Assembly: GCF_902459465.1 (NCBI RefSeq)
Contig: NC_047072.1
Coordinates: forward strand, 15,103,776 to 15,167,775
From: Asterias rubens
Lineage: Eukaryota
Reading direction: 5' to 3'
DNA: 64,000 nt
The notes beneath the pieces were generated by a model. The model worked only from the letters and a program-made list of their open reading frames with translations. It made no database searches and had not been told where the DNA came from. Shown here one piece after another: positions 31,238 through 64,000 of this stretch (its first letter is position 1; the number at the start of each line of letters is the position of its first letter). The position numbers and the translations under genes are program-made.

Positions 31238-31455
31238 TTATTCTTTGGCATTCATGTCATGTTTGAGTTTAGCCAAGGCAACCAGTCTTCTATCTCGCCA
31301 TTGACGTCTCTCCTGCAGTTGATCAAGTGGAAATCTTGTAGCACTTTCTGCAAAAATAGCATCACTTCCTTCTTCCTTAAAGTTTGGAGGTGGTCCAAAT
31401 GATGAAGTGACTCTGTTGATAGTGGGACCGTAACGTTCCATGTAGTTGGATGTAC
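31238..31455 (-). CDS. CRYL1: CRYL1 homolog, last exon with stop
   Basis: TSNYMERYGPTINRVTSSFGPPPNFKEEGSDAIFAESATRFPLDQLQERRQWRDRRLVALAKLKHDMNAKE, then stop. It aligns to human [26 protein letters not shown]...AARRQWRDECLMRLAKLK. ORF-track ORF 31238-31660. Confidence 0.9.
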
Positions 31456-31576
31456 CTAAACAAGATAAACAGTTCACATTTTTAAAACAGAAAGTCTTGA
31501 CACATTTACATGTAATAGACTTTTTTATCAAGGAGGCCCCAAAAGACTGTGTGGTGTTTTTGTTGATAATTCTTAC

Positions 31577-31682
31577 CCTCAGCATTAAGGTGAATGACTT
31601 CAAATGGTCCACAGAACGCATATCGCATTCCCAATCCAGCTGTGAAAATCTTGTCCACATCTTCTGATGACATCACACCATC
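31577..31682 (-). CDS. CRYL1: CRYL1 homolog, exon 6
   Basis: [36 protein letters not shown] aligns to human [36 protein letters not shown]. Acceptor cccag|GAT; donor GAGG|gtaaga. Confidence 0.9.
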
Positions 31683-32141
31683 CTGGGACAAAAAAGGTGG
31701 CATAAAAGAAACAAAATGATGAGTATCTTTGATTTTGAAATAAATGAACCATGAACCACAAAAAGACTTCCAACAAAACTAAATTGTTATAATTGTTAGT
31801 TGATTTTTCACTAAAGCACAAGTAGTAAATTTTCCCAAAGCTGAATAGGATATACATGTACATGTATAAATAAAGCTGTATCAACACTTTTTGAAGCATA
31901 AAAGCAGAAGATAAATTCTAGGTTTCACATTACAAAATAACTTTTTCAATCATTACACAAAAGCTGTTACCATTACAGCACTATGGATACATTTCACAAA
32001 GAGATATGATTGATCTTTAGATCTACATCTATCGTAAATGTTTAGCAAAGTGTGACATCACGATACAAAACACTAAGCATATTGACAAATCATTTTACGA
32101 TGAATGTTGGTGTTTTATGAAACCTAGCCCTGGATACTTAC

Positions 32142-32336
32142 AGCAACCAACCTCCAGGCTTCATTGATGAGGGCATACTGCATACGGTTTGAAGCAAACC
32201 CATCAATCTCTCTCTTGACCGTCACAGGAACCTGACCAACTTCTTCTAGTAGTGACCGGGTACGTGACATAATGGACTGGTCAGTCCAAGAGTTGGGTAT
32301 GATCTCCACTAGAGGGCAATAGTACGGTGGGTTACA
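32142..32336 (-). CDS. CRYL1: CRYL1 homolog, exon 5
   Basis: CNPPYYCPLVEIIPNSWTDQSIMSRTRSLLEEVGQVPVTVKREIDGFASNRMQYALINEAWRLVA aligns to human [65 protein letters not shown]. The length of 195 nt fits 65 codons. Confidence 0.9.
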
Positions 32337-32443
32337 CTGTAATCAAAGAAATAACAAAATAAACACAACGTGAAACAATCATGTTCCTTTATGACCAAAA
32401 GCTTATAAAGTAGTATCCCACATTCCTTGTCCATATTACTTAC

Positions 32444-32605
32444 TGGATGGGCCACAATGCATTGGTTGCGGCGTTTGAGTTGATGAGTGAATTTAGAAGG
32501 CACTATACAGGATGTAGAACTACAAAGGACAGTAGAATCATCAGCGTACTGTTCCATCTGCATAAAGACTTTCCTCTTAAGATCTTCATTCTCTGGCACA
32601 CATTC
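32444..32605 (-). CDS. CRYL1: CRYL1 homolog, exon 4
   Basis: ECVPENEDLKRKVFMQMEQYADDSTVLCSSTSCIVPSKFTHQLKRRNQCIVAHP aligns to human [54 protein letters not shown]. Donor CCA|gtaagt. Confidence 0.9.
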
Positions 32606-32952
32606 CTGACAAGAAAAACAAGTAAAATAATAATAATAATAACAAATTCTTATATAGCGCATTTCACAATAAACTGTATCAATGCGCTTTACATTAGTCC
32701 CCTAGTCATTGGGCCAATAAACATCCCTTTAATCTTTCTCAACTCCCATTAGCGAGTATACAGCCCCGAGCTGCCGTGGCGCTCCGAAAGCTTTTCATTC
32801 ACAATATCAACCTCTACCCTCGCAGGTACACATCATAATCAAAATAGTGTGCGACCCATCACTGTAAGAAATGTTTCCTAGGTTAGAGTCGACATGGAAT
32901 ACTTGTTACGATTTCATGACAAAAATAAATCCAAAGTACAATATGAACCAAC

Positions 32953-33105
32953 CTGTACATGCACGGCACCAGTGACTGCATCCTTCATCTCCATGGTAAC
33001 ACTGATTAGCGCCCTCTGTTGCTCAGGAGACAGTGAGCCTCTTAACAGACCAGACTTCTTTAGTTCCTCCAACTGCTTTTCAATGTCTTCGAGAGCATTA
33101 GTCAA
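32953..33105 (-). CDS. CRYL1: CRYL1 homolog, exon 3
   Basis: LTNALEDIEKQLEELKKSGLLRGSLSPEQQRALISVTMEMKDAVTGAVHVQ aligns to human [51 protein letters not shown]. The length of 153 nt fits 51 codons. Confidence 0.9.
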
Positions 33106-33283
33106 CTGAAAGATAATCAACATTTTGAACTGAGTATTCAGAACAAGGCAATTGTTGAATCTAGTAAATATAGCAAAGGAGGAGGGATCACAGATAGTAA
33201 AATTCCTGATATTTTTTTGCCAACTTCTTATTTTGCTTTACGTTCTTGATTAACAAGGAGAAAATAAAACCCAATAAGCTTAC

Positions 33284-33365
33284 CTGTGATTGTTCAATGT
33301 CATATATGGTGACATTGTAACCTGCGCCAGCAAAGATCAAGGCCCAACTCCTTCCAATCAGACCA
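33284..33365 (-). CDS. CRYL1: CRYL1 homolog, exon 2
   Basis: [28 protein letters not shown] aligns to human [28 protein letters not shown]. Acceptor tacag|T; donor CAG|gtaagc. Confidence 0.9.
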
Positions 33366-33952
33366 CTGTAAAAAAAATAGAGGGAAAACACAATTCAGAA
33401 ACGAAAAATGGTTGAACACGGCCCATGCACCACTGCCTTTCCCTGATTGATTCACTAGGCACTCCTTATTGCGATAACGTAACCCTCCCCCCAATGGAGA
33501 AGCCGACGGAGGAGTGTTACTGATAGCTCACAGCTCACTCCTCCAGTAAAGTTGGGCTAAAATCATAGAGCTATATTAGCTCTTAGTAATAGTATTATGG
33601 CTTCAGTTTCTACTCCTTTTTTAAGTCAGATTTTGTTGTTTTTTGTAATTGTTAATAATAATGAATATAATATCAGCAAATTTTTATCAAATTTAATCAA
33701 TTTTTTGTTTTTTGTAATTTTAAACAACATAATAATGAATTTAAACACGTCAATTTATTTTATAGGGTATATTAGTTGCGATAACGTTTCCTAGCAAAAA
33801 ACACAATGTCAACAGATTTACATTAAACTTACACAGTTTGAAGATTATGATAGTAGAAAGCTTCCCTTGAAATTTTACTTACTGAGGTGCTGTACTTTTT
33901 GAGAAATTAGTAAAAGTAATAATTTTCATCTCAGTGCATGTAAAAACGCATT

Positions 33953-34331
33953 AAAGGCAGTGGACACTATTGGTAATGACTCAAAATATTTATCATCATA
34001 AAATCTTTCTTGATTACAAGCAATGGGGAGAGATAGATGGTATAAAACATTGCGAGAAACAGCTCCCTCTGAAGTGACGTAGTTGTCGAGAAAGAAGTAA
34101 TTTTCCACGAATTTGATTTTGAGACCTCAAGTTTAGAATTTGAGGTCTCGAAATCAAGCATCTGAAAGCACACAACTTCGTGTGACAAGGGTGTTTTTTT
34201 CTTTCGTTATTATCTCGCAAATTCGACGACCGATTGAGCTCAAATTTTCACAGGTTTGTTATTTTATGCATATGTTGAGATACAACAAGTGAATTGTCTT
34301 TACAATTACCAATAGTGTCCACTGTCTTTAA
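33953..34331 (-). mobile_element. MITE copy 3, inside CRYL1 intron 1
   Basis: Same TIRs and internal body as copies 1 and 2. Confidence 0.8.
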
Positions 34332-34668
34332 CCAGTTATGCTATGGTTTGGGTATAATATCATAACTGGTTAAGGGGATTTTACATGCTAAAATAGTTTT
34401 GGTCTCATGAGACCAAAACTATTTTGTGACTTGTTTTACTCCTTTCTCAAAAACTACACAACCTTAGTTAGTAATATTTGAAGGGAAGCTTTCCAATATC
34501 ATTATCTTCAAACCCTGTAAGTTTAATGTAAATCTGTGGACATTTTGAAAAAGTATCCGAATTAAGTCATTAACTTCTGTCATGTATTTTGTGATATTTT
34601 TAATTATATGGGGGCCTATTATATTAAAGTATTATTGATAATGAATTGAATTAAATTGAATTGAATAC

Positions 34669-34742
34669 CTGCCAATAATTCCAATCTTTCCTTTTCTAGT
34701 TGATGCTGGTGGTGGTAGCCCTGCTGCACTAGAATCTGCCAT
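34669..34742 (-). CDS. CRYL1: lambda-crystallin / L-gulonate 3-dehydrogenase (CRYL1 homolog), exon 1
   Basis: The minus-strand ATG at 34742 gives MADSSAAGLPPPASTRKGKIGIIG, then AG|gtattc. This is the start of the NAD-binding Rossmann GxGxxG motif (human [21 protein letters not shown]). Confidence 0.8.
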
Positions 34743-34805
34743 TTTGTATCCACTTCCAAACAACGTTTGTTGTGTGGAGCCAAACTGGAACTTTTTGTTC
34801 TCAAC

Positions 34806-34837
<32 letters not shown>

Positions 34838-35403
34838 CTCAATCAATCAAATCATAGAGGAAGGTCCTTCCTATATCATATGATCAAATCATGGAGGTAG
34901 CTCAATGATCAAACAAATCAACCCCTGCTTGTTGAAAACTTGAACTTGTTGGAATGTTGTGCAAGTTGTGGTTTGCAACTGAACCAGTTGAGACTGGCAC
35001 AGTCCCTCCCATTGTTATCTTTCTCATCTCATTCATGGGTCAATGATTTGATGATTTGGAAAAATAAAGATTGCACTTGTATCGTACAGCATGAAAACGA
35101 TACACTCTTTGTGATACAGTTGACAAGGGGAACGAGCGGAACTACATGATCTGGGCGGTACGCGTTACTCATCCACGTCACGACCCCATTCATTAGTGCA
35201 GAACACAGTAAATAAATAAATGACCCCTGGATATAAAGAGGAAAACATTACTAATATTGACCGTAAGGGGCGTTATTGCTCGATGTTGAGTTGACGAAAG
35301 AGGGCGTTCTTGTAAAAGGTTGAGGATTGACAGTTTTTGAAGTTTATTCCAACTACATAAATCTTATCCAGATATAAGCTACAAAACTGCTTATCCTACA
35401 AAC
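34743..35403. promoter_or_regulatory. divergent (bidirectional) promoter region between the CRYL1 ATG (34742, - strand) and the ATG of the unidentified gene (35404, + strand)
   Basis: The two start codons are 661 bp apart and in head-to-head orientation. The region contains a (CAAT)n/CCAAT array at 34806-34850 and a GC-rich block with cacgtcacg at about 35150-35185. Confidence 0.5.
34806..34850. repeat. (CAAT)n microsatellite beginning with CCAAT, in the CRYL1 / unidentified-gene divergent promoter
   Basis: ccaatcaatcaatcaatcaatcaatcaactcaatcaatcaaatcat. Confidence 0.8.
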
Positions 35404-35420
35404 ATGGGAAGTAGTTCAAG
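35404..35420 (+). CDS. unidentified conserved Ser/Lys-rich protein, exon 1 (MGSSS-)
   Basis: caaacATGGGAAGTAGTTCAAG|gtaaag. The ATG is in reasonable context and is followed by a strong donor. The phase joins exon 2. Confidence 0.5.
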
Positions 35421-36001
35421 GTAAAGGCAGTATCCTCAGTTTTAATTTCTGTATTTTAATCCCCCATAAAAACAAACAACAAGTCAAAAATTAGGCTGTT
35501 CGTATGTAGTGCCCAGTTTCCGGACATTAGACCTGCTACTCACCCGGCCTACTTCTACTAGGCTCCCTCGGAGCCTTATTAGGGGTCTTACTATTTTGGG
35601 CCTCCTCCTTAACGTTAAACATTTTATTAAAATCGGCGTTGATAGATGAAAGTTTTACGACCGTTAGCCACCAATAACTGAAGTTTCCTTTGTAAATTGT
35701 ATATTGTTTTTTTGTAGTAAAAAAAATTGACAACATAACCAACAAAACTTTCCCAGACCCCACACACTCAATAGACATAATGCTTGCATTTAATTTCCTT
35801 TTTGTTGAGTGAAGTTAAAAAACATCCTCAAAAAATGCAACTTTCTCTCTGCTCGGATACTCACTGTTCTTTTTCTGCCGCATCGCCAGTTTTTTTACTT
35901 CTCAATATATATGCTCAACGCTTTATTTTTTGGGTCACCAAGCGCTGAACCGCGGGTACAAGCCTATTGGATTGACGAACTGCCGCGGCCATTATAGACT
36001 A

Positions 36002-36160
36002 AACCATTCTGTGGAAGGGGTGTTACAGTTGGGCAGTGCGTGCAGCTATATGCGTGAACGGCAGGTATTGTAAATGGACAGCATTCACGCACTGCCGTAC
36101 TGACTTTTAACACCCCTTTTACAGAATGGTTAAGTCCGACTCGGCTGCAGCTCGGCAGTT
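36002..36160. repeat. foldback element copy 2 (same family), in intron 1 of the unidentified gene
   Basis: aaaccattctgtggaaggggtgtta ... taacaccccttttacagaatggtt, then agtccgactcggctgcagctcggcag. Confidence 0.6.
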
Positions 36161-36449
36161 CCTTAATCTAGTAGGCTGGTGCTTGCGTGTACAGCACTTG
36201 GTGACCAAAAATAAAGCGTTGAGCAAAGAAGTAAAAAAAATAGATTGTTTTTTCAGTTGTTTGCATATAATGTTTTTGCTTTTGCTATATTATATTTGGC
36301 TTCTCAAAATAGCCAGTTTGCAGTTAATGATGATTTGTGGGACATAGCATTATAACAACAATCAGCATACATTTTGTAAACATTGATATGGCATCCAGTA
36401 TTTCGATTTTCTCAATTTATTTGTTTAACCTTTGAACTTTTTAAATTAG

Positions 36450-36541
36450 GGGAAAGAATTCTAAGGAAGAAAGCAGATCAAGTAAGCGTCATGTTAGCAG
36501 CAGTAGTAGCGAGGACAGCAATTCAAGTAGTTCATCTTCAG
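36450..36541 (+). CDS. unidentified gene, exon 2 (serine-rich)
   Basis: Acceptor aattag|G. (R)GKNSKEESRSSKRHVSSSSSEDSNSSSSSS; donor TCAG|gtgatt. The length of 92 nt leaves phase 1. Confidence 0.55.
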
Positions 36542-36864
36542 GTGATTTATTCTTGGCAACAAGAAACTTTATGAAATTATATTTCATTAATCAATATGAC
36601 AACTCATGCTATTTGCCAGGTTTGCTTTTAAATTAAAATATTCAAGGACACTCTCATTAGGGGGCTTGAGGGTAGCACATAGATTCTCAGTTGTGGACTT
36701 GGCCAACCCTTCTCCATGCAATCCCCTTGGTTTCTGGCGATGCTACTGCTCTTTATGTATAATAAGGTTTTTACATGCTATAGTATCATGATCGTTGCTT
36801 GGGCATTTCTAAAATATCCCTGATATTTTTTTAATTAAATTTATTTCAAACTGTTCCCATGCAG

Positions 36865-36982
36865 AGTCTGAGTCAGAATCTAAGATTCACTTCAAGAAGC
36901 AGAAAGTAGACTCAGCAACTAAGAAGCAGCGGAAACGAGAAAAGAAACGAGAACGAGAGAAGAAGAAAAAGAAAGAAACAAG
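36865..36982 (+). CDS. candidate cassette exon (Lys/Arg-rich ESESESKIHFKKQKVDSATKKQRKREKKREREKKKKKETS), frame-incompatible with the next exon
   Basis: Acceptor cccatgcag|AG and donor ACAAG|gtgaga are good. It is in frame with exon 2, but its 118 nt (not a multiple of 3) produce an immediate TAA when joined to exon 4 at 37244. Confidence 0.3.
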
Positions 36983-37243
36983 TGAGAATGGAGTCATCTT
37001 ACTTTTTAAAGATTTTTAATAACAAGTTGCGATTGAATAATATTGAATAAAAGTGTTGTCAGATCTGATTATTTCCTTTGGAGAATTTTGTTTATCATAT
37101 TTGCATGAAAGTGAGTTCAAAAAGCAACCAAGAAAATAAGTACTTGTAATTTCGTAACTAATTGTATTGTCATGTCATAAAATACAACGCATTCTCTGCA
37201 CAATCAAACCCAAAATACTTAATATTCTTTATTTTTTGTACAG

Positions 37244-37308
37244 ATAAGATCTCCAAGGATGACTTTTACCACAAAAGCACAGAGTTCAGATTATGGCTTG
37301 TTGAAGAG
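37244..37308 (+). CDS. unidentified gene, exon (KISKDDFYHKSTEFRLWLVEE)
   Basis: Acceptor tttttgtacag|AT; donor GAG|gtaatt. It joins in frame to exon 2 (phase 1 plus AT gives GAT). Confidence 0.6.
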
Positions 37309-37431
37309 GTAATTTATACAGCATTTTCCCCCATACAAGTTAAACACCCAGCCAGAATAGTACCTTTTTATCATTTCTTGTCATCTCATGTCTATTAATT
37401 AATACATGGTGTGTTTGTGTCACTGTACAGA

Positions 37432-37524
37432 AGGGCAAATACTTTGATCAACTTACGGGTGCAAAAGCCAAGAACTATTTCAAGAAATTTGTGAAGAGAT
37501 GGAATGCAGGGAAGCTTTCAAAGG
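37432..37524 (+). CDS. unidentified gene, exon (KGKYFDQLTGAKAKNYFKKFVKRWNAGKLSK)
   Basis: Acceptor ctgtacag|AAG; donor AAG|gttagt. The length of 93 nt is phase 0 to 0. Confidence 0.65.
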
Positions 37525-37669
37525 TTAGTATGAGGCATAGTTTGTATTTAGATTAATCTTTCAATACCTTGCCTTTTATTGTTCTATCCCTTACATGTTG
37601 TTCCATTCTTTTAAAAATTGTGTTCGCCAATGTTGCTGTTATTTGGCAAAATAATCAAGTGGCAAGCTT

Positions 37670-37932
37670 AAAGACACTGGACACTATTGGTAATTGTCAA
37701 AGACCAGTCTTCTCACTTGGTGAATCTCAACATATGCATAAAATAACAAACCTGTGAAAATTTGAGCTCAATCGGTCATCAAAGTTGGGAGATAATGATG
37801 AAAGAAAAAACACGAAGTTGTGTGCTTTCAGATGCTTGATTTCGAGGCCTCAAATTCTAAATCTGAGGTCTCAAAATCAAATCCGACGAAAATTACTTCT
37901 TTGAGTAATTACCAATAGTGTCCACTGCCTAT
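37670..37932 (+). mobile_element. MITE copy 4 (internally deleted, about 263 bp), inside an intron of the unidentified gene
   Basis: Both TIRs are present. The central segment between the palindrome and the second TIR is missing. Confidence 0.7.
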
Positions 37933-38201
37933 AACACTCCGGCTGATTGACCATTCAAAGCCAAGAATCCATTCCTTACACTTGCCTGTAGCTTTGTAGG
38001 CCTACACACTCTATAGCTTTACAATTGAGTCAGTTGTACACAACCATGGATGATCACCGGAATGTGTAAAAGGTTTTTGATAGTGGATTAGTGGGCTCCA
38101 CAATCTAAAGCAAGTAGAAGGGGGTTTTATGTTTTTATATTTCAAATGCCCGCCAATAAGTGTGATATTTAATCTTTTTTTTCTTTCTTTTCTCTATTGC
38201 A

Positions 38202-38264
38202 GAAATTTTACAGAGGAATAGACCATGAGGATGCCAGAGCATCTCTTACTAAATATAAATGGAA
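38202..38264 (+). CDS. unidentified gene, exon (KFYRGIDHEDARASLTKYKWK)
   Basis: Acceptor tattgcag|AAA; donor AAG|gtggtt. The length is 63 nt. Confidence 0.65.
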
Positions 38265-38451
38265 GGTGGTTATCTTTAGTTGGCTCTTTGTTTTTGCGGC
38301 TGCATTTATATATTATTAATGTAACTTTTTCTCAATTCATTTTTATCCCAGACAGCCCCAAAAAGCTTCAATCACTTAATTTGACCAATTTAGTTGTTTG
38401 ATTTCACTTTAATCTCAGAAACCCTTTTTAATATCTCTTTAGTTTGCAGAG

Positions 38452-38685
38452 CGTCACACACCCACAAACATAAAGAAGCTTGACATTGCCAGCTACGATA
38501 ACAGACATAATACAACGCTTAGTGGAGATCACATGACCCCAGTGGCTGACGGTCTCATGAAACCCAAGACCTTCTCAACCTTCGGCAAATCAACAGCATC
38601 GGGATCAAGAGATGACAGTGACCAAATTGGACCAAGTCGACCTGTACAAGGACCCTCAAGACCAGTACAGGGACCTATGCGACCA
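38452..38685 (+). CDS. unidentified gene, exon with a tandem PSRPVQG peptide repeat
   Basis: A NAGNAG acceptor (cagag|CGT) is used, because the first AG gives an in-frame stop. RHTPTNIKKLDIASYDNRHNTTLSGDHMTPVADGLMKPKTFSTFGKSTASGSRDDSDQIGPSRPVQGPSRPVQGPMRP; donor CCA|gtaagt. It matches ORF 38533-38718. Confidence 0.6.
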
Positions 38686-39140
38686 GTAAGTTATCCAATT
38701 GTTGTAATATGTATGTGATATGGAAAGGTTTGCCGTAACACCATTAATGACTATCTCTAAATGAATTGGGGTGGTTCTGATAAGAACCGTTGGTTTCAAA
38801 TCGACGTTTTGATCAGTATGTTCTGCTCGTCATCTGGAGACAATATATGTATGTGTTTTTCCTTCTGTTTGTATTCTCAAATGATGGTTGCAACCAGGCC
38901 TCAAAATAACCCACATCAATTGCCGTGGTTTCCAGTGCTTTTGCTGTGGTGCCCTCTGCAAGAGAAATACAAACTTAGATTTTCCCCATGGAAGTGCTCC
39001 TTATCGGAGGAAAATTGCAGTGCCCTTCAAAAGCGAAGTTGAAGGCCTGGCTGTAATCATTGTGGTATAGTGTAAAACTACCGCTAAACCATTTTGTAGT
39101 GAATTTAATTATTTCAAAATCAATCATTTTTTTGTTTTAG

Positions 39141-39236
39141 CCATCTTCGTCACAAGCTGAGTATGAAATTACACAAGAGCAGAGAACGAAGCAACTCAGA
39201 AAAGAGCGAAAACAGTTTAGAGAACATGATAAAATG
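39141..39236 (+). CDS. unidentified gene, exon (PSSSQAEYEITQEQRTKQLRKERKQFREHDKM)
   Basis: Acceptor tttgttttag|CCA; donor ATG|gtaagc. The length is 96 nt. Confidence 0.55.
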
Positions 39237-39512
39237 GTAAGCCCAATATTGAAAACTCTCTTCAGCAGATGGTATAAATGTGGTGCAAACAGCTCCAGAG
39301 TCTCAGAGTATGGGGTAGTGGTCAATTTATGCTGAATGAGCATGTAGCAGATTAATGAAATTATGGTAGGAATTCTTTTACACTTGGACCATTGTACGTT
39401 CACAGTGACAGTGATTGTAATGAAAGCCAAAACAACAAAGTAGCCACATTTTTTTGCTTAAATTTTATCTTTCTAGCCATCGTTGAAATGAATTGAATTT
39501 GTTTGTGTGCAG

Positions 39513-39643
39513 GTTATGGAAGAGCTTGCACCGAGGGCTACTGGCCATGAAGCCAAGATTGAAAAGAGATTGCTCCGAGCAGAGCAGAGAAAACGAAAAG
39601 GAAACAGCCCTGAGACAAGAGAGTCATTCCTGTACGGGGGAAA
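39513..39643 (+). CDS. unidentified gene, exon (VMEELAPRATGHEAKIEKRLLRAEQRKRKGNSPETRESFLYGG)
   Basis: Acceptor gtgtgcag|GTT; donor GGAAA|gtaagt. Basic coiled-coil-like segment. Confidence 0.55.
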
Positions 39644-39695
39644 GTAAGTAATAATAACATCCCTAAAACAGTGCAATCCAAAGATATGGTTCTTT

Positions 39696-39850
39696 AAAAG
39701 CACTGGACACTATTGTTTACTACTCAAAATAATTGTTACCATAAAAACTTACTTGGTAACAAGCAATTGAGAGCTGTTGATAGTATAAAACATTGTGAGA
39801 AACGGCTCCCATTGAAGTAATACAGCATAGTTTTTGAGAAAGAAGTATTT
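39696..39850 (-). mobile_element. MITE fragment (one TIR plus about 150 bp) inside an intron of the unidentified gene
   Basis: aaagcactggacactattgtttactactcaaaataatt... matches the TIR-proximal half only. Confidence 0.55.
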
Positions 39851-39927
39851 ATGTATTGTTGTTATCCAAGAGAAATTCCGTTAGCTCAGAGCCTCGGTTT
39901 TTATGTTTATTTTGGTTTCTTTTCAAG

Positions 39928-40150
39928 AAGACAGCAGCTTGAGAAAAAGACTACTTTACAGGATTCTCTTTTAGGAGATGATGAAATGACTCTATTAAAT
40001 GTTTCCGTTTATCCCTTGACCAATAGGACTGACATTCAGTCACAGGTAGATGCACAAAGGCATAAAAAGGAGCAGAGAAAAGAGCATTGGGAGAACAAAG
40101 CTGCCACCAAAGCAGAGGAATATAGGGCAAAGGAGAAGGCAAAGATGTCT
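39928..40150 (+). CDS. unidentified gene, exon (KRQQLEKK...VDAQRHKKEQRKEHWENKAATKAEEYRAKEKAKMS)
   Basis: Acceptor ttttcaag|A (an alternative AG lies 3 nt downstream); donor TCT|gtaagt. It matches ORF 39851-40234. The length of 223 nt is phase-consistent. Confidence 0.55.
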
Positions 40151-40813
40151 GTAAGTACAAAGTCAAATAATATCTCTTGCAATTCAGCTTACCTACCAGA
40201 CCTGTTGGACAATGTCATCAGGATTTTACAATGACTTATGCGCTTTACATTAGTATCATAGTCATCAGGCCAATGACATTCCTGTTATCTGTCTCAGCTC
40301 ACTTGGAATATAACAGTGCAGGCTACCGTACACGGTGCTCAGTAGGCTTTTTTATACACAATATCAACCTCTACCCTGGCAGGTACCCGTTTATATATAC
40401 CTATGGGTGAATAGCAATTACAGTGAAGTGTCTGTTCAAGGACACAAGTGTCATGCTCAGGATTCGAACCCACATCACTAAGGCCTAATTACCAGAACTT
40501 GTACTTCATGATCTTTACTGCTCGGCCATGACCCCGTATTGAAACATGTGATGATTGGGCAACTTCTGAAGATTAACCAAACCTAGTGACCTTAATAAAC
40601 TATTGTGTAAAATAGTCTGCATCCAGTTAACTTTTGCCAGTTGCACTACATCTTGATGGCAAACTAAATGCAGGGAGGCATCGAACAATCATATTCAAAG
40701 CAGCAATTTCAGTAGACCAAATTGGTGGAGGTTTATCTATCATCCCCAAAACTCTGAAAAGCATGTCCACAAATATCTTAAACTTATTGTTTGAACTATG
40801 TTTTTGTACACAG

Positions 40814-40864
40814 GCACTGTTGGAGCTTGCAAGAGCAAACAAAAGTGAGAATGCACTCTGGTGA
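40814..40864 (+). CDS. unidentified gene, last exon (ALLELARANKSENALW, then stop)
   Basis: Acceptor tgtacacag|GCA; TGA at 40862-40864. Confidence 0.5.
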   Translation, partial: ALLELARANKSENALW

Positions 40865-41578
40865 TTGACATGAGGGATGATGAACAAAGCACAGAGCTTA
40901 CTGATGATGAACTTTAACAAATACCACAGCTCCATGTGTCTTTCCAAGTGTACATACTAACAACTTCTATTACTTCAGGTATCCGTATATTTATGTTTAA
41001 GTTTGAACTCTCTTTGATCTTTGTGATTGGATTTGTTGGGAATTGGCAACTAGGTGCAACAAAAGATTGTCAACAATTTTGTTTTTTAATTTTTTAATTA
41101 CAGTATTTGGATTACAGGTTTTGTCTAGGTTTATTTTAGATAATATTGTATGGGTGTCCCTAATGACTTCAAATTGTGTATTAAAGATTTTTTATTTTTG
41201 TAACATAATAGACTTTTATTTGATACATGTCATCAAATTTGTAAAGGGTTATTCCTTGCTTCGTTAGAATCGGTGTACAATAGCTTATGGGTTACTAGAA
41301 GAAAAAACATTATTAGAAGAAATTACCTTTGCAAGAACGTTAACTAGTTAAGGGTGGCAAAGATCCAAACTTGTACACACATTTCATGTAGTTTCATGAC
41401 AAAATCATTATTTCAGATTTAAACGCATGACTCGACAATCAGTCTTATTTTTACTTTCATGAATTTTTAATCAAACACTTCTAGAAATGCAAATGCTCCT
41501 GTATCAAATAATCCATTCTATCTGGTGTCCAGGCTCCCAATCACAACCTGCTGTGCAGATTGTTTGATAGGCACCAGT

Positions 41579-41945
41579 TAAAGACATTGGACACTATTGG
41601 TAATTGTCAAAGACCAGTCTTCTCACTTGCTGTATCTCAACATATGCATAAAATAACCAACCTGTGAAAATTTGAGCTCAATTGGTCGTCGGAGTTGTGA
41701 GATAACTATGAAAGAAAAAACACCCTTGTCACACGAAGTTGTGTGCTTTCAGATGCTTGATTTCGAGACCTCAAATTCTAAACTTGAGGTCTCGAAATCA
41801 AATTCATGGAAAATTACTTCTCTTCAGAGGGAGCCGTTTCTCACAATGTTTTATACTATCAACCTCTCCCAGTTACTCGTTACCAAGTGAGGTTTTATGC
41901 TGATAATTATTTTGAGTAATTACCAATAGTGTCCACTGCCTTTAA
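41579..41945 (+). mobile_element. MITE copy 6 (full length), intergenic downstream of the unidentified gene
   Basis: TIRs and the internal palindrome are intact. Confidence 0.8.
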
Positions 41946-44900
41946 ACCATGAGACTCACTTTGATTCCCACAGTTGTGTGAATAAGAAATCCAAGATGGC
42001 TGCTGTGAGAGAAAGTCTGTATCAATGATATAATTAAAGACTTTTTAGTCTACAATTTATTTTTTGTTTGTCTATATTGATAATAGTTTGGAATGTACAG
42101 TTTAATTGCTTTGACAAATTTCTTATTTAAGATGAATTAAAACAATAACAAACAGTAATAAATGTTCCTAATGATTCATCTTTTTGGTGTGGCTTACAAT
42201 AACAACATGACAACGTATTAGAGTTTCAATGATTGTAAGTTTATATTAATTTTGGTGGTTGTAATGGCCTTGAAAATGTTCTTGTATTCTTCCAAAAATG
42301 AGTGTTCCTTTGCTTAATTATTTGAAAATTAACGTTGGATCAAATATTTAGTAAGATAAATGAGCAGATTGAGGACAACAGTAAATTGCATTGACAAATA
42401 GAATTGCAATGTGTAAAATAAGTTTGGATACAAAATAATTGATCGTTTGGTTGAGAGTAAATAAGAGAGAAAAATAACAGTAAATATCAATCATACATGT
42501 CTACAATAGTGACCTTGGCTAAGTAACTAATAAGACATGCTAAAACCTTTAACTTTCCAATACTTGTTATATCACAAATATACTACACCACCAAGACATC
42601 CCCAACAAAATTCAAAACTCTGTAAAATTAAACAAGACTAATAAGTGCATGACAAAAATGCATACTGAAGAGATTGGCACTGAACCTTTGAAGGGGTAAA
42701 CCACTCCAGAAAGGTTCATTATTGTGCATTTCATTCAAACTGCATTGCTTAACATATAACAAGTTTACACCAAAATGTATGAAATATTTCAGGGCTTTTG
42801 CATATTTTGGTTCAGAATTTTTACTTGTATGTTGGCTCGCACCTTGTTTTCACATATATAAATAGGTGTTTTAAAGAGTTCATTGGGCCGATTTCACAAG
42901 GAGTTAAAATTGACCTGTTAGTGTGAATCAATCTTAATTGCTAAGCAAAGTGTGATGTCACAATACAAATCACTATGGTAATACTGACACTCATCTTAAG
43001 ATTAATCTTATTAGTGCCTTATGAAATCCAGCTCTGGTTAAAGAATTTTGACAGATACGCAGTTTTGATGTTTTCAGGCTCATTTGAGATAATAACTCCA
43101 TATTACTGGAATGGCGTATTAGTTCAAACCATTGCTACTTGTCCCATATACTACAGTTGTGTTTAAGTGATAAATAAAGGACTCCCGCATTGTGACTTTT
43201 CCCAATCCATTATTATTGAAAGCCTTCTGTTACACAGATTACATCACACACGCTTGGTTTGGGAGTCCACATGGAACCTACTTTGATAAAAAAAATATGG
43301 CCTTATGCAAAAAATTATTCATAGCTCGACGTTTCAACTCGCCTAGCAGAGTCTTTCTCAAAGGCTAAAGGAACTTGAATGTTGACATATCAACCTTTTA
43401 TTTCAAGTCCTTCATTTTAATGTAGATTTGTGTACAAACATGCACAGTTATACTGTAGTTCATCTGTGTTGATGACTACAATATAACTTAATGAACAAAA
43501 CCACTATTTTATAACTCCATATTTACGATAATCTTAATCCCCACAGCATGAACCAGAGAAAAGTAGAAAATGTTATCAAACCGATAGAAAATTGTAAAAA
43601 GATTATTTAGTTTTGTACTTTTCAAATTAATTGATTGCCAAGGTCAAGTTATCCATACTTGTAACACAAGCTGCAACAAATTAAAAGTTTGAACCACTTT
43701 CATAAATATGATATGATGATATCAATACTGAACGACGCTGATATCACTGCTGGAACTTTCAACACACTTGATCATAAAAAGATGATTCTACATCAACACC
43801 ACAATTACCTGAAGGCCAATCCCACAAAACTTTCAATTGATTGTGAGATATCTAAATATTTCCTGATAAGATACAACCCATACCAAGTATAACAAATGAC
43901 ATCCCTCTACCAAGTAAATTGATGTAAATACAAAAAGGTGAAAATATATATTTATCCATTTGTAAAATGCATGTACACCAAACTCCACTTGTAAAAAAAA
44001 AAGTCAGCTGACAATAATAAATACAAACATATCTCATTGAGATATGAATCTGTCAGATTTTAAAAATTGGATTACAAATTAATAAGAATGTCATCAGTTT
44101 ATGTGCACATTATTTCATTACATCATAACATCCCCTTTTGAGACCAGCTTCATTTATATATTATTTTGTTGTTGATGGAATGTTACAGGCCGGTCTTGAG
44201 CCAATATTACATTGTTATGCGAAAATCATTCAAAAGTACCATCAAATTAAACAGTAACCATGCATACAAAATTACTAAACAATTATTTATTCTTGCTTTT
44301 TTAATAGTATTGGCCCAGCTTTATCAACACAACTGACCACTTAAATCAAAGTAGTATAACCATTTTCTGTATACATAATTTTATACCGAAGTATATTCCA
44401 AATTCATTCCAAAATACAGAAACATATTGATAAAATATTTGAATTCCATATACACGCAGATACTTTTGCTCTGTCCATGACACAAACAATGGGGTTTGTT
44501 ACAACTTGATGCAGAATTGTAAAAACTAAAACATAATATTTAGTGTGTCTTTGAGACAAGTCCATGTAACCATGGTAACTACAACAAACAATATATGAAT
44601 AGGTGACCTTCAAAAATGTATTCAATATTTTACATATTCACACAATTAAGCAATATTAGGCGAGTTTAAAAATGTTGATATACAAGAGTACTAACAAACT
44701 TATCACACAACCTTTCAAAAAACTCTCTCCAAAACTATAGGCACTGTTTGTATATTACACAAATAGATAACATTTAACAAAATGTTCTTTATCTACCAAT
44801 TAATTTCCCCAATATAACTGGCTTAAAAAACTGAGAGAGACCACAAAAATACTTAGTACTAATCCTTTAAGTTCCATTGATTTTCATGACTATGCTCGAA

Positions 44901-45916: not shown

Positions 45917-46297
45917 CTGAAAATTGAAAACAGTTTCAGATGACAGAGTCTCAAAAGATAATCAAATAAAGACAATGGCTACAAAGTACTAATCCTGGAG
46001 AAAATGAAATGAAAAAGGATTTTGTCTTCACATCCGAATAAAAATTTAAGATTGTAAAAACTAAAAATAATCCCAAAATCTGTTGATAAAGAAACCAAGT
46101 AGAGGGTGGTCTACCAATAGAGTAATGGAGTTGATTATCCAACTGTCATTGGACAATTGGTTTGTTTGCTAATTCTAAATTAGCCAATCAATAAAAAAGA
46201 TGAGCCTAAACTTTGGCCGTTTCACATGTTTTGTCTTCTTTCTATTGGCTAACCGATGTTTCAAAAGATGTCTATTTAAAATAAAAAAAGTGTTAAC

Positions 46298-46465
46298 CTT
46301 CTTCCCAGGTGTGCCAAGCTGATGGTGTGATGTCACCCTTTGCCACCGTGGTAACTCCTGATACCACTGCATGGTGTCCACTCCAAGCAGTCCAAATACC
46401 CTGTTAAGGGAGGGTACCAGTTGACGTGTCAAGTAGTAGGTTGTGTTCAATCTTAGGCTCGGATC
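46298..46465 (-). CDS. REV3L: REV3L exon
   Basis: DPSLRLNTTYYLTRQLVPSLNRVFGLLGVDTMQWYQELPR... aligns to human DPTLRLNATYYITKQILPPLARIFSLIGIDVFSWYHELPR (ORF 46175-46606). Confidence 0.9.
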
Positions 46466-46775
46466 CTTAGAAAATAAAAACAACAAACTCTGATGAACTA
46501 AATTGATTAAATTGTGCCATAATAAATAACTCAAAATTTTAGTGGGCTTAATTAGAATTACACTTTGGATTTTAAATCTTTCCACAACAAAAAAGTGACG
46601 AGACAAGTTATAACAAATATTTGTTAGAATTTAGAAAACTTAGTGTAGCAAAGTTATAGGTAAGCTAAAAAAAATTCCTGAGAAATGAAAACACAGTATT
46701 AAGACTGGTTGAAACTTCATGTAATGGTTGAAACACACCTTGGTCACAACCACATTTACTCATCATTGATTTTAC

Positions 46776-58690: not shown

Positions 58691-59085
58691 CTGATGGTCA
58701 AATGTTAAATCAAATTACAATCAATGTATGATAAGGAATAAACATTTATAGAACATGATCAAGTACTTGTTTATCCACAGTTCTGCCAATTGAAGATAAA
58801 AATATCATCATTATGCTTCCTCAAAATAAGGTCATGTCCGAATTAGCGGCTACGGCTACGGCTAGATTTCTGTGACATCATGCATTGAAGAATAGGACGT
58901 CCTAAGAAACACACTAAGCATCAGTCAGAGCCAGAGCTGAAGCCTCCCATTTGGATACAACCTTAGGCTGGGTTTTTTTAATGCAGAGAAATATGCGCAA
59001 TACTTAAATTACAGATATTTTGTTATACAATTGGAAAAAAAAAACAATATTTGTAAACTAAATTCTTAAAAATGAACCACATTAC

Positions 59086-59896
59086 CTCTCTTGGTGTGAA
59101 GAGCAATGACTGTCTCATACTAGATGAAGAAGATTGTCTCTCACAAGATGGTCCAGCTGACATTGGGTCACGCGGCCTCTTCCATCCACTAATAGGGGTG
59201 ACAGGAAGAGGAGTACCTTTTGACTGTGTGTGAACGCGTAGAGGAGTACTATGCTGTGGTTGGCTGCTCTCCCTCCCAAGCAATGGTGTATCCCGTTGGG
59301 ATAAGAAGCCGTTTGTATTCCAGGGGGTTGGACTCAATCGAGATGGGCCTTCCATTGGTGAGGAAACTACTCTGGATGATTGTGTGCCGTTATTAATCCA
59401 GAGTGGTAGATTGAACTTTGGTGTTTGCACTTGAGACATTGACGGTTTGTGCTGTGACTCGTTTGCCTGTGTGTTTAGAATGACACTGTGCATGTCTTCC
59501 TTCATGGTTGCTGCCAAATGTTCCTTATCATCTTTAGGCTGAGAGGTTTTGGTCACAGTTTGGTTTGTTTTATCCTTGTCTTTGTCATTTTTGTTTTCCT
59601 CATCTTCTTTACACTTATCAGTTTTATTGTTCTTATCATCCAACCACTCCTGAACCTGTTTAACAGAGGGAGGGGACCTACAAGGTGTAATCACAGCATC
59701 CACATCTCCCACCAGAGCCGCTTTTAATCCACATTCAGGGGCAATGTTGCTAGGCAACAATAAGGGGTGTGGACTCAAGGCCATCATGTTGGCTTGCCAT
59801 TGGTTGAGACCTGTTTGGGAAAGTTTACTTTCAGCTTCAGGTAGAGAGGATGGCAGATTGGATTGCAAATGACCTTCGTCGTGAACACCTGGTTTA
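59086..59896 (-). CDS. REV3L: REV3L exon (disordered central region)
   Basis: Acceptor ttcttcag|T; donor GAGAG|gtaatg. It matches ORF 59023-59925 (KPGVHDEGHLQSNLPSSLPEAESKLSQTGLNQWQ...LLFTPRE). The length of 811 nt is phase-consistent with the giant exon. Confidence 0.75.
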
Positions 59897-60119
59897 CTGA
59901 AGAAAAATATAAGTGTGTATATCAAAATAAAGTCTGCTTCAATACATCATTTAATGTTGACTTTGAATATTACACACGTAGACTGATAGTAAAACAACTT
60001 CTTGCTCACATCGTATTAGGTTTGATTGCAACCAGAACTAAGAATTATAACTCTACCTTTGTAAAAATAATTGGGCAATTATTTAAGAGATACTTATAAG
60101 ATTATTACAACTCACATAC

Positions 60120-63100: not shown

Positions 63101-64000
63101 CTCAGAGTCACCAAAACTACTTTTGTGTTTTGCCTCGTTGAACTGTCTACTTGTGATTCCTGTCACATTGTCTATTCTTAATAATCCAGTATTGCACATT
63201 TGTTCCGACAGTGAACCATTTCCGTTTCTAGAGGTATCAACATTTATCAGCTGCATATTTGTCCCATTCTCTCCTTCTTGCCGGGAATTCTCATCTTCGC
63301 TCGTTGAGCCTGAGAATCTGTTCACCAATGTCTCCGTTTTATTGCTAAGGTTGTGACCCATCCTGTTTGACCTTTCTCCATTCTCACGCCTCTGATTTTG
63401 AGTGAGATTCTGTTGGAACCCTTCTCTCATACTTGAAAATAATTGTCCACCTTCTTCACTTGGTGACCAGCATCTTGGAGGAGAGCCTTCCTTCTTTGTT
63501 TTACGTGGTGAGAAGTATCCCAAGTTCCACATTGCATCCCGATATAAAGTAGCTTCTGAGTCGGTGTCTTGGTAACTGGTAAAATGACCATTGACTGCAG
63601 GTTGATAATCTGAAGCCCTCGGACATGACCCATTATGTTGTTCACTCATTGAGACATTGCTATCTGTGTGCTCATTGATTCTTGGTCTTGCTGTAGTGGT
63701 TCTGCAGGTAATAGGTCCATACATTGAGCCATGAGTTGTAGAAACAATAGACTGGTTTAGGTTTTTGACTTGTTGCCTTTCAGTTGTATCTGTTTTAGAT
63801 GGGCTGTTTATACTTCTACCATTATGCAGCATGGAGTCAACTGTAAAAGACAATTGAGGCTTAGGTCTTGAGGGACTACTATTTTTGTCTTCCTTCTTTG
63901 CAGAATGAGATCCTGATTTTAACAGTTTAGATTTCTTGTTTTTGCTTCCAGGGGGTCGCCCTCTTTTTTTTTGAGGGCTCCATGGAAATCCTTTTCCAGC
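60120..64000 (-). CDS. REV3L: DNA polymerase zeta catalytic subunit REV3L, giant internal exon (partial; continues beyond the window end)
   Basis: The minus-strand frame is open from 64000 to the donor CCAG|gtatgt at 60119 (ORF 60083-63853 plus an upstream continuation). It has Ser/Asp/Glu-rich low complexity typical of the 4-kb central exon of REV3L. Assignment follows from the downstream polymerase exons. An AT-hook-like KKRGRPPGSK lies at 63941-63970. Confidence 0.8.

What the first reader, a model, noticed from the sequence alone, without database searches (positions are those of the whole stretch)
35404..40864. Conserved-looking gene of unassigned family: MGSSS N-terminus, Ser-rich, basic block DDFYHKSTEFRLWLVEEKGKYFDQLTGAKAKNYFKKFVKRWNAGKLSKKFYRGIDHEDARASLTKYKW, tandem PSRPVQG repeats, coiled-coil basic tail
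Ten exons with consistent phases assemble into a protein of about 330 aa. The central aromatic and basic block (FYHKSTEFRLWL / FVKRWN / FYRGI) looks like a conserved globular or RNA-binding module. The rest is low-complexity Ser/Lys/Arg/Glu, suggesting a nuclear, possibly spliceosome- or nucleolus-associated protein. I could not match it from memory to a named family, so it may be poorly annotated. It shares a 661-bp divergent promoter with CRYL1.
Basis: partly seen in the sequence, partly recalled or inferred. Interest (0 to 1): 0.55.

Follow-up and report, generated by a model that had tools for sequence, protein, structure and literature searches.

The report
Starfish homologue of plant SCI1 protein
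This is a real, correctly placed starfish gene whose protein belongs to the SCI1 family, known only from a plant regulator of cell proliferation tied to the splicing machinery; it is an ordinary but badly named gene from a family not studied in animals in the papers I found.

Summary
The gene is real. An exact spliced alignment gives 11 GT-AG exons (not 10) from 35404 to 40864 on the + strand. They encode 363 aa (not about 330), identical to Asterias rubens RefSeq XP_033635657.1.

Its RefSeq name, "corepressor interacting with RBPJ 1-like", is a low-complexity artefact. No Cir_N domain is found, and orthologues carry unrelated names.

The aromatic and basic central block is the Pfam SCI1_hairpin domain (PF27660). 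It is 54% identical to a plant "style cell-cycle inhibitor 1"-like protein. A domain profile finds 1253 clusters. Named members include echinoderms, hemichordates, amphioxus, a priapulid, a placozoan, sponges, choanoflagellates, fungi, a glaucophyte and plants.

Most members, including this one, are a long form with a conserved helical C-terminal module that the angiosperm SCI1-like proteins sampled lack. Intron positions and phases match in another starfish and a hemichordate.

Plant SCI1 is nucleolar and speckle-located and binds CDKG;2 (a CDK11 homologue), cyclin L, a DDX41-like helicase and spliceosome proteins. By homology, the starfish protein is probably a nuclear factor associated with the spliceosome or nucleolus. 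That function is inferred, not shown.

N-myristoylation is unlikely. The head-to-head CRYL1 neighbour is confirmed but not conserved in other species.

The parts
35404..35420 (+). Coding exon 1 (17 nt, MGSSS + 2 nt; phase-2 donor). Start codon context is aaacATGG.
   Evidence: Patiria has the same 17-nt first exon with the same phase.
36450..36541 (+). Coding exon 2 (92 nt): Ser-rich, acidic N-terminal tract.
   Evidence: Predicted disordered, pLDDT about 40.
36865..36981 (+). Coding exon 3 (117 nt): end of the Ser/Glu tract and the Lys/Arg-rich basic helix (residues 44-77; 18 K+R in 34 aa). Candidate nuclear or nucleolar targeting segment.
   Evidence: Predicted helix 53-75. The targeting role is inference.
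37244..37308 (+). Coding exon 4 (65 nt): start of the SCI1_hairpin domain (ISKDDFYHKSTEFRLWLVEE).
   Evidence: The 65-nt exon size is identical in Patiria, Lytechinus and Ptychodera.
37431..37523 (+). Coding exon 5 (93 nt): second helix of the hairpin (KGKYFDQLTGAKAKNYFKKFVKRWNAGKLSK). Contains invariant F114, F117, W121, N122 and L126.
   Evidence: The 93-nt exon size is identical in all four deuterostomes with introns.
38203..38265 (+). Coding exon 6 (63 nt): end of the conserved domain (KFYRGIDHEDARASLTKYKWK). Contains invariant Y131 and W148.
38443..38685 (+). Coding exon 7 (243 nt): disordered linker with the conserved FSTFGK motif and the GP-x-RPVQGP repeats. The two GPSRPVQ units lie at 38629-38670.
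   Evidence: The two units differ at 7 of 21 nt, all synonymous.
39141..39236 (+). Coding exon 8 (96 nt): start of the conserved C-terminal helical module (…KERKQFREHDKM).
39513..39643 (+). Coding exon 9 (131 nt): the motifs VMEELAPRATGHEAKIEKR and SPE…LYGG of the C-terminal module.
   Evidence: An [ED][ED]-[LIVM]-x(1-2)-P-[KR] motif (EEL-x-PK in the starfish) is present in 72 of 81 long-form homologues.
40027..40150 (+). Coding exon 10 (124 nt): long charged helix of the C-terminal module.
   Evidence: (helix 309-360, pLDDT 86-96).
40814..40864 (+). Coding exon 11 (51 nt including TGA): the conserved C-terminal end ALLELARANKSENALW.
   Evidence: The …[AS]LW ending is shared by named echinoderm, hemichordate, placozoan, sponge, amphioxus and choanoflagellate homologues.
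34743..35403 (.). The 661-bp interval between the start codons of the CRYL1 homologue (minus strand) and this gene. It holds a (TCAA)12 microsatellite (34801-34850) and a CpG cluster (35073-35182). It is a presumed promoter and 5'UTR region, but the transcription start sites are unknown.

Best explanation
Window 35404-40864 (+) is an 11-exon protein-coding gene of the starfish Asterias rubens. It encodes a 363-aa, 42-kDa, very basic (pI 10) protein. This protein is the long form of the SCI1 family (Pfam PF27660, SCI1_hairpin).

The protein has four parts:
1. A disordered Ser/Asp/Glu-rich N-terminus followed by a Lys/Arg-rich helix.
2. A domain of about 70 aa with an aromatic core, whose central part is predicted as a helical hairpin. 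This is the family signature.
3. A disordered linker carrying an FSTFGK motif and GP-x-RPVQGP repeats.
4. A conserved helical C-terminal module of about 130 aa (KERK…EEL-x-PKATG-x-E-x-IEKR, SPE, LMGG, KEKAKM…ALW).

By homology with plant SCI1, I propose a mechanism. The basic tracts would take the protein to the nucleus or nucleolus. The hairpin domain would dock it onto partners associated with the spliceosome, of the CDK11/cyclin L and DDX41 type. The Ser-rich tract and the conserved S-P site would make it regulatable by phosphorylation.

Shown here: the gene model, the family membership, the domain architecture and its conservation. Inferred only: the localisation, the partners and any effect on splicing or proliferation.
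For: Gene model:
- There are 11 GT-AG exons, and the CDS of 1092 nt reads through with no internal stop.
- An independent exact spliced aligner reproduces the model.
- The protein is 100% identical to XP_033635657.1.
- Patiria and Ptychodera have 11 exons with identical intron phases and the same 65- and 93-nt domain exons; Lytechinus lacks only the last intron.
- A cDNA-like contig carries an uninterrupted 343-aa homologue, 46% identical and closest to the echinoderm proteins.

Family:
- The precomputed Pfam hit for this exact protein and almost all homologues is PF27660, named SCI1_hairpin.
- Direct BLASTP gives 54% identity over 57 aa, E 1e-17.
- The liverwort long form also matches the C-terminal module: 32% over 107 aa, E 5e-11.

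Breadth:
- 1253 clusters match at E<=1e-3 and 680 at E<=1e-10.
- 116 of 199 proteins in hand with the domain (the best-scoring matches plus earlier hits) are long form, and 82 share the C-terminal module.

Structure:
- AF2 gives pLDDT above 90 for about residues 90-130 (helices 87-98 and 107-123) and for the C-terminal helices. Residues 1-46 and about 138-226 are disordered.

Function by homology:
- Plant SCI1 is nucleolar, is degraded at mitosis and binds 14-3-3 (PMC9013909).
- It binds NtCDKG;2, a CDK11 homologue (PMC11720235).
- It also binds cyclin L and NtRH35 (DDX41-like), and its network includes U2A', NKAP and CACTIN, with co-localisation in speckles (PMC13552211, citing Pinoti et al. 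2024).

Selection on the linker motif: the two GPSRPVQ units differ at 7 of 21 nt, all synonymous.
Against: All functional data come from the plant short form, which lacks the C-terminal module. Only the basic region and the hairpin can be compared, and the hairpin is only about 54% identical.

No localisation, interaction or expression data exist for any animal member in the sources I could search.

The domain folded alone gave only pLDDT 68.

The original plant hypothesis was CDK inhibition rather than splicing.
Confidence: 0.75

Rival explanations
1. It is what RefSeq calls it: a CIR1-like protein (corepressor interacting with RBPJ 1), a Notch/CBF1 corepressor and splicing-associated factor.
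For: The RefSeq name of the identical protein is 'corepressor interacting with RBPJ 1-like'. From my own knowledge, CIR1 also has K/R/S/E-rich low-complexity tails.
Against: A Pfam scan at E<=1 returns no Cir_N domain. The only hit is a sub-threshold SR-25 match in the low-complexity N-terminus.

Orthologues carry mutually inconsistent automatic names: triadin-like, ATRX homolog, PPIG-like, CWC22 homolog, ZC3H4-like and 'splicing arginine serine-rich 12'. This is the signature of naming by compositional similarity.

The conserved parts belong to PF27660 instead.
Confidence: 0.03
2. The family acts as a direct inhibitor of cyclin-CDK complexes, independently of splicing. This was the original plant 'tissue-specific inhibitor of CDK' hypothesis. 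The starfish protein would then be a cell-cycle brake.
For: In plants, SCI1 loss increases cell number and overexpression reduces it. SCI1 is degraded by the proteasome at mitosis and binds a CDK (PMC9013909, PMC11720235).
Against: The CDK it binds, CDKG;2 (CDK11-like), is itself linked to transcription and splicing (PMC11720235). The partners and co-localisation point to speckles and the nucleolus (PMC13552211). No kinase-inhibition assay is reported in the papers I read. There is no sequence similarity to known CDK-inhibitor families in the Pfam scan.
Confidence: 0.15
3. It is an N-myristoylated protein associated with membranes.
For: Gly is at position 2, followed by small residues.
Against: Residue 6 is Arg, not Ser. 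The usual myristoylation consensus, G-{EDRKHPFYW}-x(2)-[STAGCN]-{P} (PROSITE PS00008, from my knowledge), therefore fails at its fifth position.

Gly2 is not conserved: sea urchins start MPKAK, Saccoglossus MTKHK and a sea cucumber MHSS. Where Gly2 is present it is usually followed by Lys or Arg.

The protein is highly basic with nuclear-type K/R clusters, and the plant homologue is nucleolar.
Confidence: 0.03
4. The model is a chance concatenation of ORF fragments and is not a real gene.
For: None was found. The only weak point is that no A. rubens transcript could be examined here; the exact protein is not on record in the contig index.
Against: Homologues across eukaryotes reach E down to 1e-159. 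Intron positions and phases are conserved in three other deuterostomes. A cDNA-like contig exists for a homologue closest to the echinoderm proteins. Synonymous-only divergence between the repeated peptide units shows selection at the protein level.
Confidence: 0.01

Closest known systems
[quoted passage not shown]
   Same: It shares the SCI1_hairpin domain (PF27660), preceded by a Lys-rich basic tract and a Ser-rich, phosphorylatable N-terminus. Identity is 54% over the domain core with a grass SCI1-like protein. The aromatic residues that are invariant across the animal and fungal members are largely retained in the plant sequences.
   Different: The plant proteins are short, about 115-156 aa, and end just after the domain. 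The starfish protein continues for about 210 aa, with a repeat-bearing linker and a conserved helical C-terminal module. That module is also present in fungi, choanoflagellates, a glaucophyte and a liverwort. Function has been tested only in plants, in the floral meristem and pistil.
Uncharacterised long-form SCI1_hairpin proteins of other non-vertebrate animals, choanoflagellates and fungi (e.g. Patiria XP LOC119730624, Saccoglossus LOC100378007, Trichoplax TRIADDRAFT_60950, Priapulus XP_014674531, Gamsiella BC939DRAFT_410924)
   Same: They have the same four-part architecture, the same C-terminal motifs and, in animals, the same …ALW end. Deuterostome relatives that have introns share the same intron positions.
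   Different: The differences are lineage-specific only: the number of GP…RPVQGP repeats, the length of the N-terminal low-complexity tract, loss of the last intron in Lytechinus, and an intronless CDS lacking the KERK…IEKR motif in amphioxus.
CIR1 and SR-25/ARL6IP4 (K/R/S/E-rich proteins associated with nuclear splicing)
   Same: They share composition, with Ser-rich and Lys/Arg/Glu-rich low-complexity tracts, and probably a nuclear location. This is why automatic pipelines borrow such names.
   Different: There is no Cir_N domain. The SR-25 match is 21 bits against a 40-bit cut-off and is confined to residues 6-78, the low-complexity region. The conserved domains are unrelated.

Membership tests
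SCI1 family (Pfam PF27660, SCI1_hairpin) | Match to the PF27660 profile | tested here: met
   The precomputed Pfam annotation of the identical protein P0001 and of almost all homologues is PF27660.1, named SCI1_hairpin. The local Pfam copy lacks this model: even the plant SCI1-like protein P0038 gets no hit. A direct hmmscan score could therefore not be obtained.
SCI1 family (Pfam PF27660, SCI1_hairpin) | Significant sequence similarity to a plant protein named SCI1 | tested here: met
   [quoted passage not shown] BLASTP gives 54% identity over 57 aa, E 1e-17.
SCI1 family (Pfam PF27660, SCI1_hairpin) | Helical hairpin fold with a conserved aromatic core | tested here: met
   AF2 on the full-length alignment gives helices 87-98 and 107-123 with pLDDT above 90. 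W93, F114, F117, W121, N122, L126, Y131 and W148 are invariant in 20 sequences. The domain-only model was weaker, pLDDT 68.
SCI1 family (functional definition from plants) | Nucleolar or speckle localisation and degradation at mitosis | not testable with these tools
   Known only for tobacco SCI1 (PMC9013909). The starfish protein has a basic K/R cluster, which is suggestive only.
SCI1 family (functional definition from plants) | Binding to CDKG;2 (CDK11-like), cyclin L, RH35 (DDX41-like) and 14-3-3 | not testable with these tools
   Reported for tobacco (PMC11720235, PMC13552211, PMC9013909). There are no animal data.
CIR1 (corepressor interacting with RBPJ 1), the RefSeq name | N-terminal Cir_N domain | tested here: not met
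   The Pfam scan at E<=1 returns only a sub-threshold SR-25 hit and no Cir_N.
SR-25 / ARL6IP4 (PF10500) | Score above the Pfam gathering threshold (40 bits) | tested here: not met
   The score is 21 bits, E 2.8e-4, and the match covers residues 6-78 only, the low-complexity region.
N-myristoylated proteins | Gly2 plus a small or uncharged residue at position 6 (consensus G-{EDRKHPFYW}-x(2)-[STAGCN]-{P}), conserved among orthologues | tested here: not met
   The sequence is M-G-S-S-S-R, so position 6 is Arg. Gly2 is absent in sea urchins, Saccoglossus and a sea cucumber. The consensus itself is recalled from PROSITE PS00008.

The most novel reading that the evidence does not exclude
The long-form SCI1 protein may be an ancient, pan-eukaryotic cofactor of the machinery associated with the spliceosome, of the CDK11/cyclin L and DDX41 type. 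Its C-terminal module would carry a function that angiosperm SCI1 has shed.

It may have escaped notice because it was lost from vertebrates, insects, nematodes and budding yeast. That would explain why it appears in no solved spliceosome structure. Echinoderms would then be the most tractable animal system for studying it.
Probability: 0.2. Interest if true: 0.5.

Novelty: new member of a known kind. Interest (0 to 1): 0.27.

Why it matters
There are three practical points.

First, the RefSeq name "corepressor interacting with RBPJ 1-like" is wrong and should be replaced by an SCI1-family name. The orthologue names (triadin-like, ATRX homolog, PPIG-like, CWC22 homolog) are equally spurious. 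They can mislead enrichment analyses in echinoderm and hemichordate genomics.

Second, SCI1 is discussed in the plant papers I read as a regulator of floral cell proliferation. The data here show that it is the truncated form of a widespread eukaryotic protein. The conserved C-terminal module of that protein has never been studied.

Third, if the link to CDK11/cyclin L and the spliceosome holds in animals, starfish oocytes and embryos would be a convenient system to test it.

None of this is a new kind of system. The family is already in Pfam and the gene is already annotated.

Tried and rejected
Searches that found nothing useful:
- The local Pfam-A scan of the full protein and of the part without the N-terminal tract gave only a sub-threshold SR-25 hit. 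The local copy predates PF27660, as a control with plant SCI1-like P0038 showed.
- PDB sequence searches with the protein and with the 20-sequence profile gave 0 hits even at E<=10.
- Foldseek of the full model against PDB gave one meaningless hit at E 8.7.
- The afdb50 library was not available.
- ARAGORN found no tRNA or SINE-like gene in 34000-42000.

Searches that fell short:
It added few named taxa and no vertebrates.
- Looking up the exact starfish protein in the contig index found nothing, so no direct A. rubens transcript check was possible.

Literature:
- Searches for 'PF27660' and 'SCI1_hairpin' found nothing.
- The fungal 'SCI1' of Sordaria (STRIPAK complex interactor) is a name collision, not a homologue.
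- The key paper, Pinoti et al. 2024 (J Exp Bot), and DePaoli et al. 2012 are not held. Their content is cited second-hand via PMC13552211 and PMC11720235.

Ideas rejected: CIR1 membership, SR-25 membership, N-myristoylation, chance ORF concatenation, and a conserved bidirectional promoter shared with CRYL1. No CRYL1 was found in the 6-10 kb flanks of the orthologues in five species.

Full report
**1. What is in the sequence**

The window is AT-rich eukaryotic DNA with about 37% GC.

From the ATG at 35404 I assembled 11 exons, each flanked by AG…GT:

| Exon | Coordinates |
|---|---|
| 1 | 35404-35420 |
| 2 | 36450-36541 |
| 3 | 36865-36981 |
| 4 | 37244-37308 |
| 5 | 37431-37523 |
| 6 | 38203-38265 |
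| 7 | 38443-38685 |
| 8 | 39141-39236 |
| 9 | 39513-39643 |
| 10 | 40027-40150 |
| 11 | 40814-40864 (including the TGA) |

This gives a 1092-nt CDS and a 363-aa protein. An exact spliced aligner that I wrote independently reproduces the same 11 exons.

The exon count (10) and the length (about 330 aa) are not.

The start codon has a good context, aaacATGG.

**2. Is it a real gene?**

Yes.

- The 363-aa protein is 100% identical over its full length to RefSeq XP_033635657.1 of Asterias rubens. That identifies the source organism.
- Orthologues are found at E 6e-159 in Patiria and 2e-149 in Acanthaster. Hemichordates, sea urchins, a sea cucumber, crinoids and a brittle star score between about 1e-56 and 1e-77, apart from a partial crinoid protein at 6e-34. 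Amphioxus scores 4e-40.
- I fetched four orthologous loci and mapped their exons:
  - Patiria has 11 exons, with introns after the homologous residues and phases 2,1,1,0,0,0,0,0,2,0.
  - The hemichordate Ptychodera has 11 exons with the same phases.
  - Lytechinus has 10 exons; only the last intron is missing.
  - The domain exons have identical sizes in these three species (65 and 93 nt). The next exon is 63 nt, or 66 nt in Ptychodera.
- A 1154-nt contig assembled from run SRR27871384 carries an uninterrupted 343-aa homologue, 46% identical and closest to the echinoderm proteins. It is probably spliced mRNA.
- The two GPSRPVQ units differ at 7 of 21 nucleotides, all synonymous. This shows selection on the peptide.

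I could not examine A. rubens transcripts directly.

**3. What family is it?**

The local Pfam copy gives only a sub-threshold SR-25 hit in the low-complexity N-terminus. It finds no Cir_N domain.

The protein database's precomputed annotation assigns this protein and almost all homologues to PF27660. The name is SCI1_hairpin. The model is simply newer than the local library: a plant SCI1-like protein also gets no hit locally.

A profile of the 78-aa domain, built from 18 animal and fungal sequences plus one liverwort and one unnamed sequence (alignment A2), retrieves plant proteins. [quoted passage not shown] Direct BLASTP of the starfish protein against it gives 54% identity over 57 residues, E 1e-17.

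The RefSeq name 'corepressor interacting with RBPJ 1-like' is therefore an artefact of composition. So are the orthologues' names: triadin-like, ATRX homolog, PPIG-like, CWC22 homolog, ZC3H4-like and SR-12.

**4. Distribution and architecture**

An exhaustive HMMER search of 1.84 billion cluster representatives with the domain profile finds 1253 clusters at E<=1e-3 and 680 at E<=1e-10.

Named members come from:

- echinoderms, hemichordates and amphioxus
- Priapulus and Trichoplax
- homoscleromorph sponges and choanoflagellates
- chytrids, Mucoromycota, Mortierellomycota, Glomeromycota and basidiomycetes
- the glaucophyte Cyanophora and the liverwort Riccia
- angiosperms

No vertebrate, insect, nematode or ascomycete yeast appeared among the named hits. 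I could not test their absence properly.

Of 199 proteins in hand with the domain (the best-scoring matches plus earlier hits), 116 continue for at least 120 aa after it. Of these, 82 share the starfish C-terminal module at E<=1e-3. The liverwort long form matches that module at 32% over 107 aa.

The angiosperm SCI1-like proteins I read (115-140 aa; tobacco SCI1 is 154 aa, PMC9013909) end right after the domain. The long form appears to be the more widespread, probably ancestral, architecture, and the studied plant protein is a truncated derivative.

**5. Anatomy of the starfish protein**

| Residues | Feature |
|---|---|
| 1-43 | Ser-rich and acidic; disordered |
| 44-77 | Lys/Arg-rich (18 of 34); predicted helix |
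| 78-150 | SCI1_hairpin domain; helices 87-98 and 107-123 with pLDDT above 90; invariant W93, F114, F117, W121, N122, L126, Y131, W148 |
| 151-232 | Disordered linker with the conserved FSTFGK motif and GP-x-RPVQGP repeats |
| 233-363 | Three to four long helices (pLDDT up to 96) |

The C-terminal module carries several motifs. They are KERKxF, VMEEL-x-PKATG-x-EAKIEKR, an S-P-E site, L/M-G-G and KEKAKM-x-ALLE…ALW.

The whole protein is 42 kDa with a pI of 10.0.

No solved structure resembles either part.

**6. How it probably works**

Published work on tobacco and Arabidopsis SCI1 reports the following:

- It is nucleolar in interphase.
- It is degraded by the proteasome at early mitosis, in a manner that depends on N-terminal serines, and it binds 14-3-3 (PMC9013909).
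- It binds NtCDKG;2, the homologue of human CDK11 (PMC11720235).
- It binds cyclin L and the DDX41-like helicase NtRH35.
- It co-localises with these partners in speckles.
- Its pulled-down network includes U2A', NKAP and CACTIN (review PMC13552211, citing Pinoti et al. 2024, which I could not read).
- Loss of function increases cell number in the pistil.

The plant short form consists of the basic tract plus the hairpin. Those interactions must therefore reside in parts that the starfish protein shares.

I infer that the starfish protein is a nuclear factor associated with the spliceosome or nucleolus. The hairpin would be a docking module, the basic tracts would mediate nuclear or nucleolar retention, and the conserved C-terminal helices would add a second, unknown interaction.

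This is inference by homology at about 54% domain identity. I put roughly 0.95 on identity and family, and about 0.5 on the functional proposal.

**7. Side claims**

*N-myristoylation.* Residue 6 is Arg, not Ser. Gly2 is not conserved among orthologues. Myristoylation is unlikely.

*CRYL1.* A CRYL1 homologue lies on the minus strand. A human CRYL1 sequence that I recalled from memory aligns at 38-62% identity to six exons between 31262 and 33367. The first exon, 34669-34742, encodes MADSSAAGLPPPASTRKGKIGIIG. Exactly 661 bp separate the two start codons.

Whether the promoter is shared cannot be decided from sequence. CRYL1 is not in the 6-10 kb flanks of the orthologues in Patiria, Acanthaster, Lytechinus, Ptychodera or amphioxus.

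The downstream tail-to-tail neighbour appears to be a REV3L-like gene, judged by eye from its large ORFs rather than by a search. The same arrangement is seen in Acanthaster.

**8. Verdict**

This is a genuine, conserved but misnamed gene. It is a new animal, long-form member of a known family (SCI1, PF27660). The gene itself is ordinary. Modest interest lies in the uncharacterised ancestral C-terminal module and in the family's possible absence from the standard model organisms.

Noticed in passing
window 35928-36211 (intron 1): A near-perfect palindrome of about 285-320 bp made of three nested inverted-repeat arm pairs: 35928-35950/36189-36211, 35951-35985/36153-36187 and 35997-36025/36108-36136, at 77-90% complementarity. 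It looks like a foldback or MITE-like element.
   Followed up: no
window 37668-37934 (intron 5) and 39694-39728 (intron 9): A 267-bp element bounded by 28-nt terminal inverted repeats (89%). A related terminal sequence occurs in intron 9. It is probably a MITE family.
   Followed up: no
window 34801-34850 and 35073-35182: A (TCAA)12 microsatellite and a separate CpG cluster (9 CpG in 110 bp, GC 0.49) lie in the 661-bp interval between the CRYL1 and SCI1-like start codons. The CpG cluster is the likeliest core-promoter region.
   Followed up: partly
window 31262-34742, minus strand: A CRYL1 (lambda-crystallin / 3-hydroxyacyl-CoA dehydrogenase-like) homologue. Exon 1 is at 34669-34742 and six further exons match human CRYL1 at 38-62% identity. 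It lies head-to-head with the SCI1-like gene only in Asterias among the species checked.
   Followed up: partly
window 46175-46606, 59023-59925, 60083-63853, minus strand: Large ORFs, including a 1256-aa Ser-rich ORF of the size I would expect for the giant central exon of REV3L (DNA polymerase zeta catalytic subunit). I identified them by eye, not by a search. In Acanthaster the gene downstream of the SCI1-like orthologue is REV3L in the same tail-to-tail orientation, so this adjacency seems conserved among starfish.
   Followed up: partly
L002 6001-6939 (Branchiostoma floridae): The amphioxus orthologue has an intronless CDS, whereas echinoderm and hemichordate genes have 10-11 coding exons. 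It also lacks the KERK…EEL-x-PKATG…IEKR motif of the C-terminal module. It may be a retrogene that replaced the parental copy.
   Followed up: partly
P0023 and P0052 (Riccia sorocarpa): The liverwort has both a long form (371 aa, with the C-terminal module) and a 134-aa protein that is a near-copy of the long form's domain region. This may be relevant to how the short angiosperm SCI1 arose.
   Followed up: no
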